From Spizellomyces punctatus DAOM BR117 (lineage: Eukaryota): a stretch of 64,000 bases of DNA. Numbering within the stretch: position 1 is the stretch's first letter; the number at the start of each line of letters is the position of its first letter. The stretch lies in assembly GCA_000182565.2 (NCBI GenBank), contig KQ257450.1. One strand, written 5' to 3'. The notes under the pieces were generated by a model. That model saw only the letters and a list, made by a program, of their open reading frames with translations, was not told where the DNA came from and searched no databases. A program made the position numbers and the translations under genes. Shown here in pieces: positions 1,223 to 60,651 of this stretch.

Positions 1223-4200
1223 CTAAGAGATTAGATTGAAAATGGCAGGTAGGCACAAACGTCCAGTAATCCCACGGACCAGGACAAAGTGCGTGTGCTC
1301 TCTACCGGCGCTGGCCAAAACATTGAAATTTAGAGTGCAGTTCCAGCGAATAATGTGACTACCGCTGACACTTACGATTCGCATTCCTGTACAATGCGAT
1401 GTAGTCCAGACAATTTGCAACAACCCAGAGCTTGTCCATGTCCTTGCGCAAAGGAGAATCGTCCGGTTGTGATATAGCCCACGATAGCTGAAGGTGGTGG
1501 TATCACATCCAAGAGTTTTTGTTCTTCGTTGACACTACAATCATCACTATTTTTCTCCACAGCATGTTTCCAAAATTCATATTCTTTTTCCGTTGCGGAG
1601 TAAATGATACCGCGTTCGCCCGGCGTTCCTCTTCGTAACATGGTTATGCGGACTCGAACCAGCATGTGTTCCATGGTATCAAGAGTTAGGTTGACGAGTT
1701 TGTTGGGGATTTCATATCGGTGGCGGATTAGTCGTACTACCTCCTCCATCAATAGTTGGGGTAAAGCCTCGACTGAAGCTGAACTCAGAGCAGTTCTTAA
1801 GTAGCTAATCAAGCGCGGACTGTTGATGACGTGGTATCGGCCATATGGTCGAGAACAGATACCGGAGAACCTCTGGGCACAGGCTTTGTTAGTCTCTGAA
1901 GCAGTACTGCTGTCTCTGCTATGTTGATCGCGACCCGAATTCGGTTCTTCAACGTCCATCATATCGTTGGATTGTTTCTCTTCGCCTTTTGAATTTGTCA
2001 CACCATCAACTTCGGTGCACACACCCACAGGTACTACCTCGTCATCAATCGCTTGCGGACTGGCCGGCTCTAAACCAACCAAGTCCCAGAAAGGTGGTTC
2101 GAAAGGCGACTTTACTCCATGAGCTTTGTAATTCGGTTTCTTCCCTTGGGGAGTGCGCTTCCACGCTTCTTCCTCTTCATGCCGCACCCTGTCTGCCCAA
2201 GCCTCGTACGCTGCGGTCTCCGGAAAATCATACGGGAAGCAGGGCAAACCAGCCTCGAAATGAAATGAATGCCGGTCGCGGAGACCTGCAACGCGTACAC
2301 CGGCGAAAACGAGGCTCTTCCAAACATCCATAGCCCATCCCTTGGGAAGTACAAGATCCCATCCGGCTACGAGTTCTCGAACTTCTTTCTGAACTTTACT
2401 CCCGGCTTCCTGTATAAGATAGTTACGCTGGAGGAGAAGGATCGGCACGTGCACGTCATGTGGTAGAGGCTGGAGTGCTGTTCCTGGAATAAGCGCCTGA
2501 TGATGCTATCAGTTGACAGCTCCAATAGGGGACCCTTGACGAACAATGTTATACCTGCGCCCTTCTCGCGTTCAAATCACTCTCCGTTGCTTTCCCGATA
2601 AGGCTAGCTTTTCTGATCGCAGGATCCCATATCGATGAGTCCGCTACACCCTCGGGCCATGCCATGAGACAAGTGTTAATATCGGCCTCAACTTCAGGTG
2701 AGATCCTGCCATTCCGAGGCGGCATCTTCGGTGGAAAGCTTTTCAAGTTCCACACATTAACAAACCATCATAATGATACCCAATGCATATATGGTTTTTA
2801 GTCCATACCTCAGACGAGGGTCGTGGATAGTCAAGCCGATCGCGACCCCTGGAGGCAGTGATGCAGAGGAGCGTAACAGTGCAAGCTTCGCCCATAGCTG
2901 TGACCGCATTCAGAACAAGACTGCTTTTATGCGCGTAGATTTACGGAAATTGTAACACACCTGTCGAGCTGCCATGTTTGTTGTTGTCCCATCTGTGGAC
3001 ACGGAGTCCTCAGACACTTTCATGATGTGGTGCAAAACAGCGTGGGTCCTGGGTCCGGTCAACTCAAATCGAACAAGCTCGTCGTAAAGTGAACAAATGG
3101 TCACCTCTGCGGCGGATAGAAGGTAAGCATGCATGTAATAACCCAGCTACGTCATTCAAGCCTACGTTCAATTATCTGGCACTCTTTGGCCACTTGCAGC
3201 AAAAGGTCGTGTACATGTTCATACACGGCCGGATGAAGCCAGAGCCACAACCTTCGGCCTTCATCATTCCGTCCGTTACGCGGCCTCCATAAAAACGTCG
3301 CAGGGGCTATAGCCGACTTGGGGTATTGTAGGTAACCGTAAAGATATGTCATACCTTGGCGACTCCCTTCAATGTATCTTCACGCCATTCAAACGAATTG
3401 AATCGCAGAGAAAGTGTTCGAATACTGCTTACCTCGCACTTCCAATGGATGGAATGGTTGGATCAGTGATGTCTCGCAGCAGGATCTGCAACAGTTGCTC
3501 AGGTCCCGAGATCTCGATAACTTGAAAGTAAGAAGCGTCGTGGACCAGACATTGGTTCTTTGCGGCCCGGAAAGAAGCGCGAGAACTCTTGTCATTCGGA
3601 TGCTCGGCCAATTTACAACCCCAAAGTTCCACCATCTTCATCCTTTTAGCGTGCCATACGTGTGTTTCCAACCACCTCTTTCCCATTTGTCTCCGAGCAA
3701 AGTCCTGCGTAGCTGACTTTGTTCTGCGCCTCTTTGGACGGGTGGGTGGTTTCCCCTTCTTCTTTTGTGGCCCTCCCGGGTCCTTTGCAATTTGCGCCAG
3801 CGCCTTTTCTCGCAATCGCTGTGGAAGGCGCTTCACATTATGGCTCGCAGCCCTCCGCCGCATATATCGCGGAACAGTTTGAAAGACTCGCTGAACCCCA
3901 GCGTTCTCAGTTGAATTTTCCAAGGCTTTTTGCAGTGCGCTGATTTCAAATGCCCGAGCTTCGGCAAACTCGACCACGCTTATTGGTCGCAGAGGAGTTT
4001 CACTACATTGTGCCGTACTAGTTTCCGCACTAGATGTCTCTTTATTGAGACCCTGAGAAAGTTCTGGTGTTGTTGTATCCCGCTCTTGTTCTTGTTGAAT
4101 GTGGATATGTTGCCGTGCTTTCTTTCGTTCTTTTGCCGACCCACTTGCAACACGCTTACGGCTCCCGATCCCCTGTTCCGCAGCCGCAATAACTTCTCCA

Positions 4201-4262
4201 GGCCCTTTCCTCTCGCCTGTCCCATTCCTCCGTGACTCTTTCCCACCACCTTGTGACCCCAT
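1223..4262 (-). CDS. POP1: RNase P/MRP subunit POP1, multi-exon
   Basis: FAEARAFEI, FQTVPRYMRRRAASHNVKRLP, WLETHVWHAKRMKM, HDASY, RFELTGP, GWDLVLPKGW, PCFPYDFPET, GYITTGRFSFAQGHG motifs. Confidence 0.93.
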
Positions 4263-4459
4263 GTTCGCTTAGATCTCCGTCCGTGATCTGGATTCTTTCC
4301 CATAGCAAACGATATTTCGTAAGAGGCTTGTCCAATCACGTGATACCACCCATTTCTTCATGGCTGGTCACCGTCTTGTAGCTATTCAACCAAGCACCCG
4401 AACGGCATCTTCCGATTGTAAATCCTCAACTTTCGCGTGAATTGGACAAGAAACTAAAA

Positions 4460-12308: not shown

Positions 12309-15115
<2,807 letters not shown>

Positions 15116-17922: not shown

Positions 17923-19787
17923 ATGGAAGATATTGAAGAGCCTGCTGAGATTGTAGAACCGGGTGAAATTGCAGAAACGGGAAATCTCGAGGAACCCATG
18001 AACGATGCCCCGCCCATGATCTACATGTATAATTACGACTTTGGAAGAGACCCTTCTTTAACGATATCGACAGGAAGTGCATTGTGTGGCCCTGTCGTCC
18101 TATCGACGGACGATGCTAGCGCTGCTCGCCAAGTAAATTTCTGCAAAGGTCTGAAATGGTGCGTGGTAACTCTTGAAGCCTCGAGGTTGTTTTTGTTCCT
18201 CACAAAGTATAGAATTTACAGGAGTCCAGATGGGACGTGTCTTTTGAGTAGCACCAACGACAATATCCTTCGACTATATGAAAAGTAGTTGAGTCTTTGA
18301 TTTCAAATTCTTGTTGATTGCGCATCTGATCGTTGTAGATCTGCGGAGATAGTCGATTCTAGCACTATACTTGGCGACACCCTTACCTCTGCCATCGCAG
18401 TGAAAGAAGCGGAATCCATTTATGACTTCTGTTGGTACCCGTTTATGACCTCTGCTGGTAGGAACTGTCTTGTGCAAGGGAATCAACCGAGTCGGTAGTA
18501 ACGAGCCAAATCTAGATCCTAGCACCTGCTGTTTCCTCACGAGCGTGCGAGATCATCCCGTACATCTTTGGGACGCCTACACGGGGCAAGTGAGTACACT
18601 GACATTTTTGGTCCGCTTAAAGACGGTAATATAACCTCTTGCTCTCTTCTAGTTACGCTGTTCGTATGCGGCCCACGACCATCTTGATGAAGTTCAAGCA
18701 CCAACAGCGTTAGCCTTCAACTTGGATGGTACAAAGTAAGTGTACAAGTTTTTTGAAATTAGAAACGATCAGCGTGAGCAGATTGCTCATCCAACTCATG
18801 TAGACTATATTGCGGTTTCAACAATCTGATCCAGATTTTTGAGACACAGCGGCCTGGCAAGGACTCTGAGCGCAGGCCCACAACTCCGACTAAACGAAGC
18901 AGAGAGGGACAAAAAGGTGAATTCTTTCTATCGCATCGAATCCGCATCTTTCAATGGACTAATAATATAAAGGAAATAGGCCTGATCTCATCCATCGCTT
19001 TCAATCCGGACCGTTCTGGCATGTATGCTGCAGGATCATTTTCAAAGAATGTGGGACTCTATGACGAGCGCAACGATGAGCTACTCGATTTGATGAAGCT
19101 GGGGGATGGAGGAGGGATTACACAGGTCTGTATGGCCCCTCGTCCTCCTGGGTGAATCTGCTGTAACTTTGTCTCTTCTATTGATCAGGTTCAGTTCTCG
19201 ATGGACGGCTGTTATCTCTTCTCGGCATCACGAAAGAGTGATGAGATCCAATGCTGGGATATACGGAATACAGGCGAGATAATTGCACGGTATCAGCGAA
19301 AGGGAGACACAAATCAGCGTATCAACTTTGATCTTGATCCTTCCGGGCGTTACCTGAGCACTGGAGATCAGGTATGTCTCATTTGCCCTGACAAGTGTAT
19401 TGTCATTTTATCTTATTGACGGCATTGCAGGATGGACGTATTTTAATATATGACTTGAAAACGCACGAGCTGGTAAAGGAATTTCAAGGGCATCGAGGTA
19501 TGGCTAGTCAGTTGCAGCTACTCAAATGTGCAAGTTTCCTGATAGCGTAAACGACAGACACAGTAAGTGCAGCCGGCTTTCACCCCTCCCTACCCCTGCT
19601 TGCCAGTTGCTCTGGTCAACGAAGAGACCTTTTGAGTGGCCAACTCGTAATGGACGGTGATGGCATCGAGTGTATAAGAGAAGATGACGGCACCTGTATC
19701 CCCATTGATAGTCGAGTATGTATATGGGGCTTGCCCTACCATTACGACACGCCCATGGAAGAATCAACATTATCTGGAGACAGCTAA
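17923..19787 (+). CDS. WRAP53: WD40 protein TCAB1/WDR79 (telomerase Cajal body protein 1 family)
   Basis: NFCKGLKW|SPDGTCLL, ESIYDFCWYPFM, RDHPVHLWDAYTG, GLISSIAF, IQCWDIRN, TNQRINFDLD, FHPSLPLLASCSGQR. Confidence 0.9.
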
Positions 19788-20065
19788 ATTGCAAACGGTG
19801 CACAAAAGCCGAAGGAATCCTGTATTGGCTGTAGCGGGGTCCCTCAGTGCGGTTTTACTTAAACCAGGGTCTTGGACTCTATGTGAGGTCATTTGATAAA
19901 ATATCGCATGCGAAACATATCATTAGATTAGAGAACAAAGTTTTATTTTTCTGTGTGGTGGTCCTTCTCTGCGCAACTCTGCTACAGAAACTGTGTGATA
20001 AAAAGGTGAAACTACCCTCAGCTTTACAAAAAAGACTATATATAACCCATCTGCGTACGACATCC

Positions 20066-31242: not shown

Positions 31243-33027
31243 ATGTCTTCCCAATCTAGTTTTCCACCCGCTTTTCTTGAAATATTACCCAACGTCCGTT
31301 CTCTGACGATCTCGATAAATGAATCTCCGGAGCGGCTACCTGTAGAGAAGTTAAAATTCCAAGAAAAGAGCATTTCGTATACCCCCAACGAGCAAGATCC
31401 ACCGCAGATCCTTTCCCTCCCAGTATCCATAGACCCTCGCTCCGCCACAACCACTGTAAAGTCGGAGAATGTTGACTTGAAATTCTCATTGCGCTCTTCC
31501 CTGGACGATTATAAATCACGTTCAGCGACAGACCCGGGGGCGGCAATAAAAGCTTTTCAAGGGCTCACTCAAATTCATTGCCAAACTTGTAAAACAGCTT
31601 TTTTGCCAACGTCTTCACCCGATGAAGCATCAGAGCAAGCACATCATTTTCGACGCATCATCGACATGCCGTCAGAGTATTGGCATGAATTGACAGACTG
31701 TTGGGCCTGCCATAGAGAAGATTACTCGCAATTACCGGGGCAGAAAGCTGGTGTCATCCTTGCGCAGCGCCATGCAGTGTTGGTTGCGAGAAGCTACGTG
31801 GTACTGCATCCCGAGGATGTGGATCTGCCGCGCCTAAGTGTTGATCTCGCAGGGGCAAATAAGGTGCGTTTTGCAAAAGCCTCTTGTCCGCATAACGGAA
31901 GTAATAGAAGAGGGATGTCGCTATTGAAGACTGTCCTGTCGATACATTCTTCCCATATTGAATCTCTGTGCAAATACGTCCGCGTCTATAGTAGTGGGCG
32001 CTGATCTACTACCTCAGAGAACATTTCCACTTTGTCAACGGTGGATGGAATGCCTGTTCCCCGCAATTATGCTTCTGAATATGTCTGATCGCTTCTTTCT
32101 TTTAAAACCAGGGCTCGCTACGGTTGGGCCGCTACGCGCCGGCTTTATGTGCTAGTTGCCAACAACCAGTTGGAGAGTGTTATTTTGATGAAATCCCCCA
32201 AGATGCCACCAATATCGCCGAGCACATTCGAGGAGTGAAGCTTTTCAGATATTGGGTGGATTTTGTGGTAGCAGATACTGCATCATCCCCACTCACCACT
32301 GAAAAGGACGCTTTGAATCGTACATTCGTCAGCTTTTTTGCGGATGATCTATTGGAATCTGCGGATGCCCACGCGAGTTACCGTTTTATAATCCAGACTC
32401 AAGGGTCTGATGAACCGCGATTATTGGTACGTCGAGCCTTACCTCATATACACGCTGTCATTGGATCTGGAATTAAGATTAGTCTAGTTGTGGATACTCA
32501 ATTGGAATATGGCAGTCAGCACCAATACGCCAGTACACGACATATTAGACCCAACGATGGATGCGACTTCTCTCGAAAGGGTACTCTCTATTTACACTCA
32601 AAATTTAGGACATTCGGAAAAGATGCATCCAGGTGAAGTGTCAATGTCATGTCTTTTTTTTGTTTTGTGGGTGTGGCGTCCCCTTCTATTCTGCAGCCAT
32701 AGCCGAGTCATTAGTATTCTTATACGACTGTCAACGTTTGATTTGTCTCAGCAATGAAAATTCTATATCTCGATTGTTCACAATCTGTAACGTCCGCCCA
32801 AGAGAGGTATGTCGCACAAGAAGCGATTTAGCCTAGTTTGTCCATTGGGTTAAAGCGTATATCGTAGTATCGTAACCTCTTGGCGAGGCAATGGACAGGT
32901 GGAAAGTATAAGCCTTCATCCATCTCTACATGACCAAGTTTTGACGGCGCTGCGAGTTAGCACGGCATATTTACCTCCTGCAAAGCGGGATCTGAATGGG
33001 TTTAAGGTTGGTTTTATTTTAAGATAG
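31243..33027 (+). CDS. HECT-like E2-binding protein (HECT_2 family; UBE3D / yeast Ipa1-like)
   Basis: IHCQTC, DMPSEYWHELTDCWACH, LCASCQQPVG, LLESADAHASYRF, LWILNWN, AMKILY, C-terminal STAYLPPAKRDLNGFKVGFILR*. Confidence 0.82.
31895..32026 (+). ncRNA. Intronic box H/ACA guide RNA; 5' pocket complementary to the U2 snRNA branch-pairing region (snR81-like)
   Basis: Lies in a 248-nt intron (31864-32111). Hairpin 1: GGAAG/CTTCC lower stem, pocket AGAA...GATAC, H-like box ATATTGA 14 nt downstream. Hairpin 2: TCTCTG/CAGAGA followed by ACA-TTT at 32021. Confidence 0.72.
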
Positions 33028-59658: not shown

Positions 59659-60651
59659 ATGGACGAGATGCAGAGTTACGAGAACAAGACCATCAGCTCT
59701 TTACCGCCTGAGCTGCTTTTCCGGGTATTTGGCTACCTCGATGCGGATTTCCTAGCTCGCTGCGGTGCTGTTTGCAGAGGATGGAATGCTTTGGCAAATC
59801 ATGATATCTTGTGGAAAGAACTGTGGTACGTAGGGTTTAGAAAGGGCAGTTTTATCAACAGCACCCGCTCACCAGTGCAATGATGTAGCCGAAAGCGATG
59901 GGAAAGACTTCGCCATCTCCCCCTCGCAATCCATCCACGAGTGGACTTTTCAGATCCAGACTTGGCGCGAAGTTTAAGTGTGGCCGAGGTTTTGGATATT
60001 TTACGGCGACGTGGAGTGAATCGTCCACGAGGGGCACTGGAGAAATCTGACTTGCTCAAGCTACTACACGACACCAGACCCTCAGGGAGCCCTCCTGGCC
60101 GCTGGACGGGGAAATGGTCAGAAGGATAAAAAATACGCAATTTTCCTGTAATCGACTGACGCATAGCTTTAGGAAGAGCAGCTATATTGTAGCGGAACTG
60201 GATCTTGACCGGACTCGGTTGACATTCCATGAAGTGTCTAGTATGGAGTGGAAATTCGAGGTTGGTGGAAACTGCTTGGTTCACAAGGACATTGTACATC
60301 TCATTGTCTGGTTAGTTTACGTCCGGAACAAGTTGGAATTACATGATGGATGGGGAGGGTCAACCGAGCACCACCAAGGCGCTTTTTCGCGCGGATGGAG
60401 TCTACGTAAACCCTGCTCTCCAGGTTGACGGCTTTCGCTGGCGGATGACACCTTACGGGGGCGTCCAGGTGGAGGATTATCCTCCTCACAGGCCGCAGAG
60501 AACGAGAGACGGTGGTTGGGTAAAGTGTTAATCATGATTTCGAGTTTCGAGATGACATTCTGACGGTAAACGCTTCTCTTTGTTCTTTAAGATCTTGTCG
60601 AACGGATATTTCACTTATAGATCAATAGATAGAGGGACCCCAGCGGAGTGA
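59659..60651 (+). CDS. F-box protein
   Basis: ISSLPPELLFRVFGYLD..FLARCGAVCRGWNALANHDILWKELC F-box; helix-extension-helix-like segment; C-terminal VQVEDYPP...R..DGGW. Confidence 0.8.

What the first reader, a model, noticed from the sequence alone, without database searches (positions are those of the whole stretch)
31895..31961. Intronic H/ACA guide RNA predicted to pseudouridylate the U2 snRNA branch-pairing region
The 248-nt first intron of the UBE3D/Ipa1-like gene folds as hairpin-hinge-hairpin-ACA. Hairpin 1 has lower stem GGAAG/CTTCC, upper stem GAGGGATGTC/GACTGTCCTGTC and pocket strands AGAA (31906-31909) and GATAC (31941-31945). These pair with conserved U2 5'-GUAUC-U-G-UUCU-3', leaving the U equivalent to yeast U2 Psi42 unpaired, 14 nt from an H-like box (ATATTGA, one deviation from ANANNA). 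Yeast snR81 guides this site with its 5' hairpin. The scaRNA-binding factor WRAP53 is also encoded in this window.
Basis: partly seen in the sequence, partly recalled or inferred. Interest (0 to 1): 0.8.

Follow-up and report, generated by a model that had tools for sequence, protein, structure and literature searches.

The report
Intronic H/ACA guide RNA for U2
An intron of a chytrid fungus gene very probably carries a small guide RNA of a well-known kind that directs one uridine of the U2 splicing RNA to be turned into pseudouridine; this kind of guide has not been described in this group of fungi.

Summary
Intron 31864-32111 of a UBE3D-like gene holds a 130-nt hairpin-hinge-hairpin-ACA element (31897-32026, + strand). 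The gene's protein is identical to one that NCBI names from Spizellomyces punctatus.

Evidence for:
- Folded alone, its minimum-energy structure is the canonical two-hairpin H/ACA shape, with pocket-to-box distances of 14 and 15 nt.
- It is the only site in the window, on either strand, that passes my structural H/ACA filter. No site passed in 63 shuffles.
- The hairpin-1 pocket (AGAA / GATAC) is exactly complementary to U2 GUAUC-UG-UUCU in the correct geometry. That gives 9 bp; the published minimum is 8.
- Ten RNA-seq reads lie mostly inside the element, none on exon 1 or the rest of the intron.
- Vertebrate SCARNA4, plant snoR104 and an arthropod-like intronic hairpin have nearly the same pocket design.

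Evidence against:
- The H box deviates at one position (AUAUUG).
- No Rfam family is reached.
- I could not obtain this species' U2 or the relatives' introns.
- Hairpin 2 has no identified target.

Verdict: a credible new member of a known kind, and function is not proven. Confidence 0.6, interest 0.4.

The parts
31243..31863 (+). Exon 1 of the host gene, a UBE3D-like E2-binding protein (PF09814)
   Evidence: The translation is 100% identical to P0003, which NCBI names SPPG_00742 of Spizellomyces punctatus DAOM BR117. Pfam PF09814 is precomputed for the hits.
31864..32111 (+). First intron, 248 nt, GTGCGT...CAG, phase 0. CTGAT at 32085-32089 looks like a branch site by its letters.
   Evidence: Sequence. 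ORF frames on both sides. The junction LAGANK|GSLRLGRY in P0003.
31897..32026 (+). Predicted mature box H/ACA RNA, 130 nt. The ends are inferred from the foot of hairpin 1 and from ACA + 3 nt; they are not mapped.
   Evidence: MFE = centroid = two-hairpin H/ACA shape, -35.3 kcal/mol. Only site passing the structural filter. Read depth of 1-5 is confined to about 31905-32014.
31897..31953 (+). Hairpin 1: lower stem 31897-31901 / 31949-31953, pockets 31902-31909 and 31941-31948, upper stem and loop 31910-31940
   Evidence: Folds alone into this shape. The upper stem has 10 pairs with two bulges. Its two outermost pairs are not in the MFE of the isolated upper segment.
31906..31909 (+). 5' pocket guide arm AGAA, complementary to U2 UUCU
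   Evidence: Exact reverse complement.
31941..31945 (+). 3' pocket guide arm GATAC, complementary to U2 GUAUC
   Evidence: Exact reverse complement. It starts 14 nt before the H-like box.
31955..31960 (+). H-like box ATATTG, which matches ANANNA except G at position 6. The alternative ATTGAA at 31957-31962 also has one deviation.
   Evidence: Sequence. It aligns to AuAauA of the snoR104 consensus and to ATAGTA of L001.
31963..32020 (+). Hairpin 2: lower stem 31963-31968 / 32015-32020, 5' pocket TGCAAATAC 31969-31977, upper stem and loop 31978-32005, 3' pocket CTACTACCT 32006-32014
   Evidence: Folds alone into this shape. No target identified.
32021..32023 (+). ACA box, directly after the lower stem of hairpin 2 and 15 nt after the first 3'-pocket base
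   Evidence: Sequence. Filter output.
32112..32426 (+). Exon 2 of the host gene. The next intron starts with GTACGT at 32427.
   Evidence: ORF frame. P0003 sequence. One read begins at about 32112-32113.

Best explanation
The intron encodes a box H/ACA guide RNA of about 130 nt (31897-32026, + strand).

Inferred mechanism, from the established biology of intronic H/ACA RNAs:
1. The RNA is released from the spliced intron by trimming and is protected by the Cbf5/Nhp2/Nop10/Gar1 proteins bound to its two hairpins and its H and ACA boxes.
2. U2 snRNA pairs with the pocket of hairpin 1. GUAUC pairs with GAUAC on the 3' side and UUCU pairs with AGAA on the 5' side.
3. [quoted passage not shown]
4. 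Cbf5 isomerises that U, which is the equivalent of yeast U2 Psi42 and vertebrate Psi41.

Hairpin 2 has a canonical 9 + 9 pocket. I could not identify its target.

Shown here: the anatomy, the complementarity, the uniqueness in the window, and a few reads confined to the element.
Inferred: processing, protein binding, and the modification.
For: 1. The 130-nt element's MFE and centroid are the canonical hairpin-hinge-hairpin-tail shape. The pockets are 8 + 8 and 9 + 9 nt and the pocket-to-box distances are 14 and 15 nt. The minus strand does not fold this way (z = +0.53).

2. My structural filter finds 1 site in the window on both strands, which is this one, and 0 sites in 63 dinucleotide shuffles. 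Single ACA hairpins are at chance level: 6 in the window against 2-13 per shuffle.

3. Both guide arms are exact complements of the U2 motif, and both pairs flanking the unpaired U-G are present. The composition-based chance of these 9 bases at fixed pocket positions is 4.6e-6.

4. For this same U2 site, yeast snR81 still works with 4 + 4 or 3 + 5 pairs, the minimum is 8 bp, and the flanking pairs matter most (PMC6049503, passages).

5. RNA run X7 (raw reads, about 6% of the run read): 10 reads were laid on 31700-32300.
- Depth 4-5 at 31910-31951 and 1 out to 32014.
- Depth 0 on exon 1.
- Depth 0 on the intron flanks 31868-31888 and 32036-32098.
- About 1-2 on exon 2.
This is not the pattern of intron retention.

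6. The same pocket design appears in three other places.
- The Rfam consensus of vertebrate SCARNA4, a verified Psi41 guide: cUAAGaA...GAUACaa-ucCuCC (PMC5733568).
- The plant snoR104 consensus: Ccc-GAUACAA-UCUUCC-U-AuAauA.
- L001, an intronic hairpin in a GMP synthase gene from an arthropod-like contig, with a different upper stem.

7. It lies on the sense strand of a confirmed intron.
Against: - The H box is not canonical: AUAUUG has G where the consensus has A. ANANNA is a recalled consensus.
- Only 9 guide-target pairs form, 7 of them A-U. The computed arm duplex energies are -2.9 and -0.4 kcal/mol.
- The base of hairpin 1's upper stem is weak, with two pairs and then a bulge. My first filter version rejected the site for that reason.
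- No Rfam family reaches its gathering score. The best hit is snoR104 at 15.4 bits against a cut-off of 40, with E = 6.7 and 1.7.
- A bacterial coding sequence that merely matches my search pattern scores 20.2 bits on SCARNA4. Weak hits of this kind therefore prove little.
- Folding z-scores are modest.
- The RNA evidence is 10 reads (7 first mates, 3 second mates), 6 of them only partly laid. No ends or joints were reported and the strand is not resolved.
- I could not fetch U2 of this species or the orthologous introns of relatives (see Tried and rejected).
- Hairpin 2 has no identified target.
Confidence: 0.6

Rival explanations
1. It is a real, stable H/ACA RNA, but the U2 match is coincidental. 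Its true target or targets lie in rRNA or another RNA, or it is an orphan.
For: The guide-target duplex is minimal, at 9 bp and mostly A-U. I could not obtain rRNA or snRNA sequences of this species to look for better matches. Hairpin 2 has a canonical pocket with no known target. Many H/ACA RNAs act on rRNA; yeast snR81 itself also guides a 25S site (PMC6049503).
Against: The 9 bases sit exactly where a guide for this U2 site needs them, including both pairs flanking the unpaired dinucleotide. The chance of that is 4.6e-6 per fixed site. The same arms occur in the verified vertebrate guide SCARNA4.
Confidence: 0.17
2. It is an ordinary intron whose sequence happens to fold into two hairpins. 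No functional small RNA is made, and the reads are debris of the excised intron.
For: Modest folding z-scores. A deviant H box. No Rfam family reached. Only 10 reads. My filter thresholds were set after seeing the candidate, and the first version missed it.
Against: 0 of 63 shuffles produced any site passing the filter. Reads cover only the element and not the other 118 nt of the intron. On top of the architecture there is exact two-armed complementarity to a U2 site known to be guide-dependent.
Confidence: 0.15
3. The hairpins are a structural element of the intron that acts in cis on splicing of the host pre-mRNA, for example by shortening the effective distance between splice sites, and not a trans-acting guide.
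For: The element fills 130 of 248 intron bases. In the whole-intron MFE, other pairings compete with hairpin 1.
Against: This does not explain the ACA and H-like boxes at 15 and 14 nt, the symmetric open pockets, or the U2 complementarity. The whole-intron fold is no better than shuffles (z = -0.71).
Confidence: 0.04

Closest known systems
snR81 (Saccharomyces cerevisiae box H/ACA snoRNA)
   Same: Its 5' hairpin pocket guides U2 Psi42, the same uridine in the same U2 motif, with the unpaired dinucleotide U42-G43 (PMC6049503). It has the same two-hairpin H/ACA design.
   Different: The Rfam searches of the candidate region listed no family other than snoR104 and mir-1784; I did not check that an snR81 model is in the library. 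The snR81 family was traced only within the genus Saccharomyces (PMC5824354). I could not test its second function (25S Psi1051, 3' pocket) here. I recall snR81 as longer and independently transcribed; I did not check this.
SCARNA4 / ACA26 (vertebrates, Rfam RF00423)
   Same: It is a verified guide for U2 Psi41, equivalent to yeast Psi42 (PMC5733568). The consensus of its hairpin 1 as printed shows the same layout: a 5' pocket ending in AAGAA, a 3' pocket GAUACaa, a pyrimidine-rich lower-stem strand ucCuCC, then the H box.
   Different: The candidate does not reach this model at E <= 10. It has no UGAG motif (the CAB-box consensus is recalled). Its 5' pocket pairs over 4 bases; by the consensus, SCARNA4's could pair over about 6.
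snoR104 (plant box H/ACA snoRNA, Rfam RF01220)
   Same: It is the only snoRNA family hit for the candidate. The aligned stretch CGAUACA-UCUUCC-AUA-U-AA covers the 3' pocket, the lower stem and the H box in the same register, followed by a second hairpin and ACA.
   Different: The score is 15.4 bits against a gathering score of 40, so this is not a statistical match. The Rfam model lacks the 5' pocket strand, so its U2 guide function cannot be read from it. I found no paper stating its target: one search listed 2 papers, of which I saw only the listing. The hairpin-2 pockets differ.
scaRNA:PsiU2-38.40.42 (Drosophila, RF02667) and the metagenome locus L001
   Same: This is a Drosophila guide for several U2 positions including 42 (PMC5733568). 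L001 is an intronic hairpin in an arthropod-like GMP synthase gene. It has lower stem GGAAGA/TCTTCC, pockets CAAGAA/GATACAA, and a canonical ATAGTA box 14 nt after the first 3'-pocket base. It weakly matches this model at 19.2 bits.
   Different: I found L001 with a pattern built from the candidate, so the shared letters are partly imposed. Its second hairpin is followed by ACT, not ACA. The candidate itself does not hit RF02667.
pugU2-43/44 (Schizosaccharomyces pombe box H/ACA RNA)
   Same: It is a fungal H/ACA guide for neighbouring U2 positions. It was found by the same logic, searching for the conserved 3' pocket arm complementary to this U2 region and then for the 5' arm and the box (PMC5473140).
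   Different: It uses a different target uridine and a 3'-terminal pocket. It lies downstream of RPC10 and not in an intron.

Membership tests
Box H/ACA guide RNA (class) | Hairpin-hinge-hairpin-tail secondary structure with an internal pocket in at least one hairpin | tested here: met
   The MFE and centroid of 31897-32026 are exactly this shape, with pockets of 8 + 8 and 9 + 9 nt. It is the only such site in the window and none appeared in 63 shuffles.
Box H/ACA guide RNA (class) | H box ANANNA in the hinge (consensus recalled) | tested here: inconclusive
   AUAUUG at 31955-31960 has G in place of the last A, and AUUGAA at 31957-31962 has U in place of the middle A. That is one deviation either way. 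The aligned boxes in L001 (AUAGUA) and in snoR104 (AuAauA) are canonical.
Box H/ACA guide RNA (class) | ACA box directly after hairpin 2, three nucleotides from the 3' end | tested here: inconclusive
   ACA at 32021-32023 directly follows the lower stem. The 3' end of the RNA is not mapped, and reads stop by about 32014.
Box H/ACA guide RNA (class) | 14-16 nt between the top of the pocket (the target uridine) and the H or ACA box (rule recalled) | tested here: met
   14 nt for hairpin 1 and 15 nt for hairpin 2.
Box H/ACA guide RNA (class) | Accumulates as a stable small RNA bound by Cbf5/dyskerin, Nhp2, Nop10 and Gar1 | tested here: inconclusive
   Of the 10 reads, most lie inside the element and none lie on the rest of the intron. 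That is too few to define an RNA. Protein binding cannot be tested with these tools.
U2 Psi42/Psi41 guides (function shared by snR81, SCARNA4 and the SCARNA15 5' hairpin) | Two-sided pocket complementarity to U2 around the target U, at least 8 bp, with the flanking pairs formed | tested here: met
   GAUAC/GUAUC and AGAA/UUCU are exact, giving 9 bp with both flanking pairs present. The 8-bp threshold is from PMC6049503. I took the U2 motif from the finding; I did not see the U2 of this species.
U2 Psi42/Psi41 guides (function shared by snR81, SCARNA4 and the SCARNA15 5' hairpin) | The U2 position is pseudouridylated in a guide-dependent way | not testable with these tools
   This needs Psi mapping of S. 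punctatus U2 with and without the element.
snoR104 (RF01220) | Score at or above the Rfam gathering threshold of 40 bits | tested here: not met
   15.4 bits, and 0 gathering-level matches in the window.
SCARNA4 (RF00423) / scaRNA class | Rfam model match, and a CAB box (UGAG, recalled) in an apical loop | tested here: not met
   No SCARNA4 hit at E <= 10. There is no UGAG anywhere in the 130 nt.
snR81 family | Sequence or model homology to yeast snR81, and a 3' pocket for the LSU rRNA site (yeast 25S Psi1051) | not tested
   The Rfam searches listed only snoR104 and mir-1784, and I did not confirm that an snR81 model is in the library. No rRNA sequence of the species was available. The family is reported only within Saccharomyces (PMC5824354).

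The most novel reading that the evidence does not exclude
Hairpin 1 is the chytrid copy of one ancient U2 guide hairpin inherited from the common ancestor of plants, animals and fungi. The same features would be shared by plant snoR104, vertebrate SCARNA4 and the arthropod-like L001:
- the same AGAA / GAUAC pocket
- the same pyrimidine-rich lower-stem strand UCYUCC
- the same 14-nt spacing to an AUA-type H box

On this reading, RNA-guided pseudouridylation of this U2 position predates the split of these groups. The genus-restricted yeast snR81 would be a strongly diverged or replaced descendant. Together with the TCAB1/WRAP53-like gene in the window, it would also suggest that early-diverging fungi keep a scaRNA-type system.
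Probability: 0.25. Interest if true: 0.55.

Novelty: new member of a known kind. Interest (0 to 1): 0.4.

Why it matters
U2 Psi42 (vertebrate Psi41) lies next to the branch-site recognition sequence. H/ACA guides for it are known in budding yeast, vertebrates and flies (PMC5733568, PMC6049503).

In fungi the yeast guide family snR81 could be traced only within Saccharomyces (PMC5824354). How other fungi modify this position is therefore largely unknown. My full-text search for Spizellomyces plus snoRNA listed 7 papers, and none is about such an RNA by title or abstract start.

A chytrid guide with a pocket design like SCARNA4 and plant snoR104 would give a concrete, testable candidate in an early-diverging fungus. 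It would also bear on whether this guide hairpin is ancient. It does not overturn anything, because the mechanism is the textbook one.

Tried and rejected
Own genome. None is held. I therefore could not fetch the species' U2, its rRNAs (for hairpin 2 and for alternative hairpin-1 targets), or paralogous copies.

Sequencing runs. No RNA holder listed. Of 9 rows, the 6 holders (X1-X6) are of unrecorded kind. X8 and X9, which carry the same species label and are held as contigs, laid 0 records. The tool warns this can be false, so it is not evidence either way.

Rfam.
- At gathering level there were 0 matches in the window.
- At E <= 10 the only hits were snoR104 (15.4 bits) and mir-1784 (14.7 bits).

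Orthologous introns. The protein searches named relatives: Spizellomyces sp. 'palustris' at 90%, and Phlyctochytrium, Gaertneriomyces, Geranomyces and Fimicolochytrium at 40-44%. No tool gave me their DNA.

Pattern scan. I spent the single metagenome scan on the pattern AGAAGN{18,45}CGATACANTCTTCCNATA.
- It returned 3 loci. One (L001) looks like a real eukaryotic H/ACA hairpin. Two (L002, L003) are a bacterial coding region.
- The same pattern gave 5 chance matches in prokaryote genomes. Two of them (L006, L008) are the same bacterial gene as L002 and L003.
- That bacterial gene even shows a chance lower stem and scores 20.2 bits on SCARNA4. L004 gave no snoRNA family.

Deep homology. I considered treating the snoR104 and L001 similarity as proof of deep homology and rejected that. 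The shared letters are partly imposed by my pattern and partly dictated by the shared target.

Earlier findings of this scan. Nothing turned up by place, by sequence or by words.

Literature on the snoR104 target. One search listed 2 papers; I saw only the listing, and both looked unrelated. The search and the passages of PMC10473218 did not give it. Supplements are closed. Those of PMC2396436 (predicted spliceosomal RNAs, including S. punctatus) and of PMC5824354 may hold the U2 sequence and chytrid H/ACA families.

Hairpin 2 against the 11-nt U2 motif. I checked this by eye and found no two-sided fit.

First version of my structural filter. It required the upper stem to close in isolation. 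It missed the candidate and flagged another site (ACA at 60296, H-like ATTCCA) that failed the second version.

WRAP53 gene. Pfam scans of 30 long ORFs found no WD40 domain, and my first WD regex found nothing. A looser regex and PDB searches then located the gene.
Full report
**What is there**

The window's UBE3D-like gene (+ strand) starts at 31243. Its first exon ends with AAG at 31863, and the reading frame resumes with GGC at 32112. The exon-1 translation is 100% identical to a public protein that NCBI names SPPG_00742 of Spizellomyces punctatus DAOM BR117. That protein reads ...LAGANK|GSLRLGRY... across the junction. So 31864-32111 is a confirmed 248-nt GT..AG intron in a chytrid fungus.

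Downstream of its range there is a second hairpin (31963-32020), followed directly by ACA (32021-32023).

**Structure**

- Each hairpin folded alone gives a lower stem, a symmetric open pocket (8 + 8 and 9 + 9 nt) and an upper stem.
- The 130-nt element 31897-32026, folded as one piece, has exactly the two-hairpin H/ACA shape as both MFE and centroid, at -35.3 kcal/mol.
- The opposite strand does not fold this way (z = +0.53).
- The distance from the first 3'-pocket base to the box is 14 nt for hairpin 1 and 15 nt for hairpin 2.
- Thermodynamic stability alone is not special. For the element z = -1.53, with 17 of 200 shuffles folding as well. For the whole intron z = -0.71, and in its MFE other pairings compete with hairpin 1.

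**Is it more than chance?**

I wrote a structural filter with these requirements:
- ACA preceded by a hairpin whose own MFE shows a lower stem of at least 5 bp, pockets of 4-12 nt, an upper hairpin of at least 7 bp, and 14-16 nt from pocket top to box.
- An ANANNA-like box with at most one deviation, 0-6 nt upstream.
- A second hairpin of the same shape before that box.

In the window, on both strands, 6 ACA sites have a single such hairpin and exactly 1 site has the double arrangement, which is the candidate. In 15 + 48 dinucleotide-preserving shuffles of the window, single hairpins occur 2-13 times per shuffle and the double arrangement occurs 0 times.

Two caveats apply. I set the thresholds after seeing the candidate. 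A first version, which required the upper stem to close when folded in isolation, rejected the candidate. The reason is that the two outermost pairs of hairpin 1's upper stem (31910-31940 and 31911-31939, followed by a bulged G) form only in the context of the whole hairpin. The base of that stem is therefore weak. The element is unique in the window.

**The guide**

GAUAC (31941-31945) is on the 3' side of the pocket, directly under the upper stem, and is the exact reverse complement of U2 GUAUC. AGAA (31906-31909) is on the 5' side, directly under the upper stem, and is the exact reverse complement of UUCU. This leaves U-G unpaired at the top of the pocket.

This is the correct geometry. The S. 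pombe U2 guide was found by searching for a 3'-side arm complementary to this same U2 region, then for a 5'-side arm and the box (PMC5473140, passages).

The target U is the one that snR81 modifies in yeast (Psi42, unpaired dinucleotide U42-G43). For this very site, 4 + 4 or 3 + 5 pairs suffice, 7 do not, and the two pairs flanking the dinucleotide matter most (PMC6049503, passages). The candidate offers 4 + 5 pairs including both flanking pairs.

The composition-based chance of those nine letters at fixed pocket positions is 4.6e-6. My own rough inference is that, even allowing for on the order of a hundred known Psi sites and a few registers, this stays near 1e-3.

On the weak side, seven of the nine pairs are A-U, and the computed arm energies are small (-2.9 and -0.4 kcal/mol).

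**RNA evidence**

No indexed run is on record as RNA for this stretch. One raw-read RNA run with the same species label (X7, about 6% of it read) gave 10 reads on 31700-32300, 7 first mates and 3 second mates, 6 of them only partly laid.

- Depth is 4-5 at 31910-31951, 2.5 at 31952-31972 and 1 out to 32014.
- Depth is 0 on the 164 exon-1 bases.
- Depth is 0 on intron bases 31868-31888 and 32036-32098.
- Depth is about 1-2 on exon 2.
- One read begins at about 32112-32113, the first bases of exon 2.

This pattern fits a small RNA that outlasts its host transcript. It does not fit intron retention. But it rests on at most 7 fragments, shows no ends, and does not settle the strand.

**Comparison with known families**

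Rfam reports nothing at gathering level. The only snoRNA family at E <= 10 is plant snoR104, at 15.4 bits against a cut-off of 40. The aligned part is nevertheless instructive: CGAUACA-UCUUCC-AUA-U-AA covers the 3' pocket, the lower stem and the H box in the same register.

I then scanned with a pattern made of the letters shared by the two. It found 3 metagenome loci and, as a control, 5 loci in 596 billion bases of prokaryote genomes.

- Two metagenome loci and two control loci are one bacterial response-regulator-like coding region. By chance it even offers a lower stem, and it scores 20.2 bits on vertebrate SCARNA4.
- This control shows two things. First, weak Rfam scores on pattern-selected sequences are not evidence. 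Second, through the printed consensus, the verified vertebrate Psi41 guide SCARNA4 (PMC5733568) has the same design: a 5' pocket ...UAAGaA, a 3' pocket GAUACaa, a lower-stem strand ucCuCC, then the H box.

The third metagenome locus, L001, lies in an intron of a GMP synthase gene whose last exon is 79% identical to beetle proteins. Its features are:
- lower stem GGAAGA/TCTTCC
- pockets CAAGAA/GATACAA
- a 10-bp upper stem of unrelated sequence
- a canonical ATAGTA box 14 nt after the first 3'-pocket base
- weak matches to snoR104 (28 bits), SCARNA8 (21 bits) and Drosophila PsiU2-38.40.42 (19.2 bits)
- a second hairpin followed by ACT, not ACA, so its own status is uncertain

The candidate therefore works like snR81's 5' hairpin and like SCARNA4. 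It is not a demonstrable member of any Rfam family.

Yeast snR81 itself was traced only within Saccharomyces in the survey of fungal snoRNAs (PMC5824354).

**scaRNA or snoRNA?**

[quoted passage not shown] For a third piece it is a collinear weak match (E = 0.78, ranked third).

But the 130-nt element has no UGAG motif (the CAB consensus is recalled). In flies, neither the CAB box nor WDR79 is needed for snRNA modification (PMC3884663). The gene is context, not evidence.

**Open points**

- The H box deviates at one position.
- Hairpin 2 has a canonical pocket (UGCAAAUAC / CUACUACCU) but no target I could identify.
- The U2 and rRNA of the species, and the orthologous introns of other Spizellomycetales, were out of reach.

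**Verdict**

I put 0.6 on a functional H/ACA guide for the U2 Psi42-equivalent, 0.17 on a real H/ACA RNA with another target, and about 0.2 on no functional RNA.

It is a new member of a known kind. It is useful because no such guide is described for early-diverging fungi, and because the shared pocket design hints at an old origin. Mechanistically it is ordinary.

Noticed in passing
window about 17,960-19,790 (+): A multi-exon WD40 gene. [quoted passage not shown] Pfam scans of the long ORFs had not shown it.
   Followed up: partly
L001:840-965 (+), metagenome contig: An H/ACA-like hairpin with the same U2 pocket (CAAGAA / GATACAA) and a canonical ATAGTA box, in an intron of a GMP synthase gene whose nearest named proteins are from beetles. 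The second hairpin is followed by ACT instead of ACA. It gives weak Rfam matches to snoR104, SCARNA8 and Drosophila PsiU2-38.40.42.
   Followed up: partly
L001:1017-1079 (-): A weak box C/D-like match (SNORD19, 22.6 bits, cut-off 35) on the strand opposite to the GMP synthase gene, about 60 nt from the H/ACA-like element.
   Followed up: no
window 31969-31977 and 32006-32014 (+): Hairpin 2 has a well-formed 9 + 9 pocket 15 nt from ACA, but I could not assign a target. An alternative upper stem (TAGTAG 31988-31993 with CTACTA 32006-32011) competes with the canonical fold.
   Followed up: partly
L002:1823-1932 (-), also L003, L006, L008: A bacterial (planctomycete-type) coding region matches the guide pattern by chance and scores 20.2 bits on Rfam SCARNA4. 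This is a warning that sub-threshold H/ACA hits can come from coding DNA.
   Followed up: yes
window 1372-4268 (-): A POP1 gene (RNase P/MRP protein subunit: POP1_N, POPLD and POP1_C domains). It is another RNA-processing gene in the window.
   Followed up: no
window 12517-15041 (+): Adjacent ORFs with amino-acid kinase, N-acetylglutamate synthase-type NAT and semialdehyde dehydrogenase domains. From memory this resembles the fused fungal arginine-biosynthesis (ARG5,6-type) gene.
   Followed up: no
window near 60150-60300 (+): My first, differently defined H/ACA filter flagged a double hairpin ending in ACA at 60296 with the H-like box ATTCCA. It failed the second filter.
   Followed up: partly
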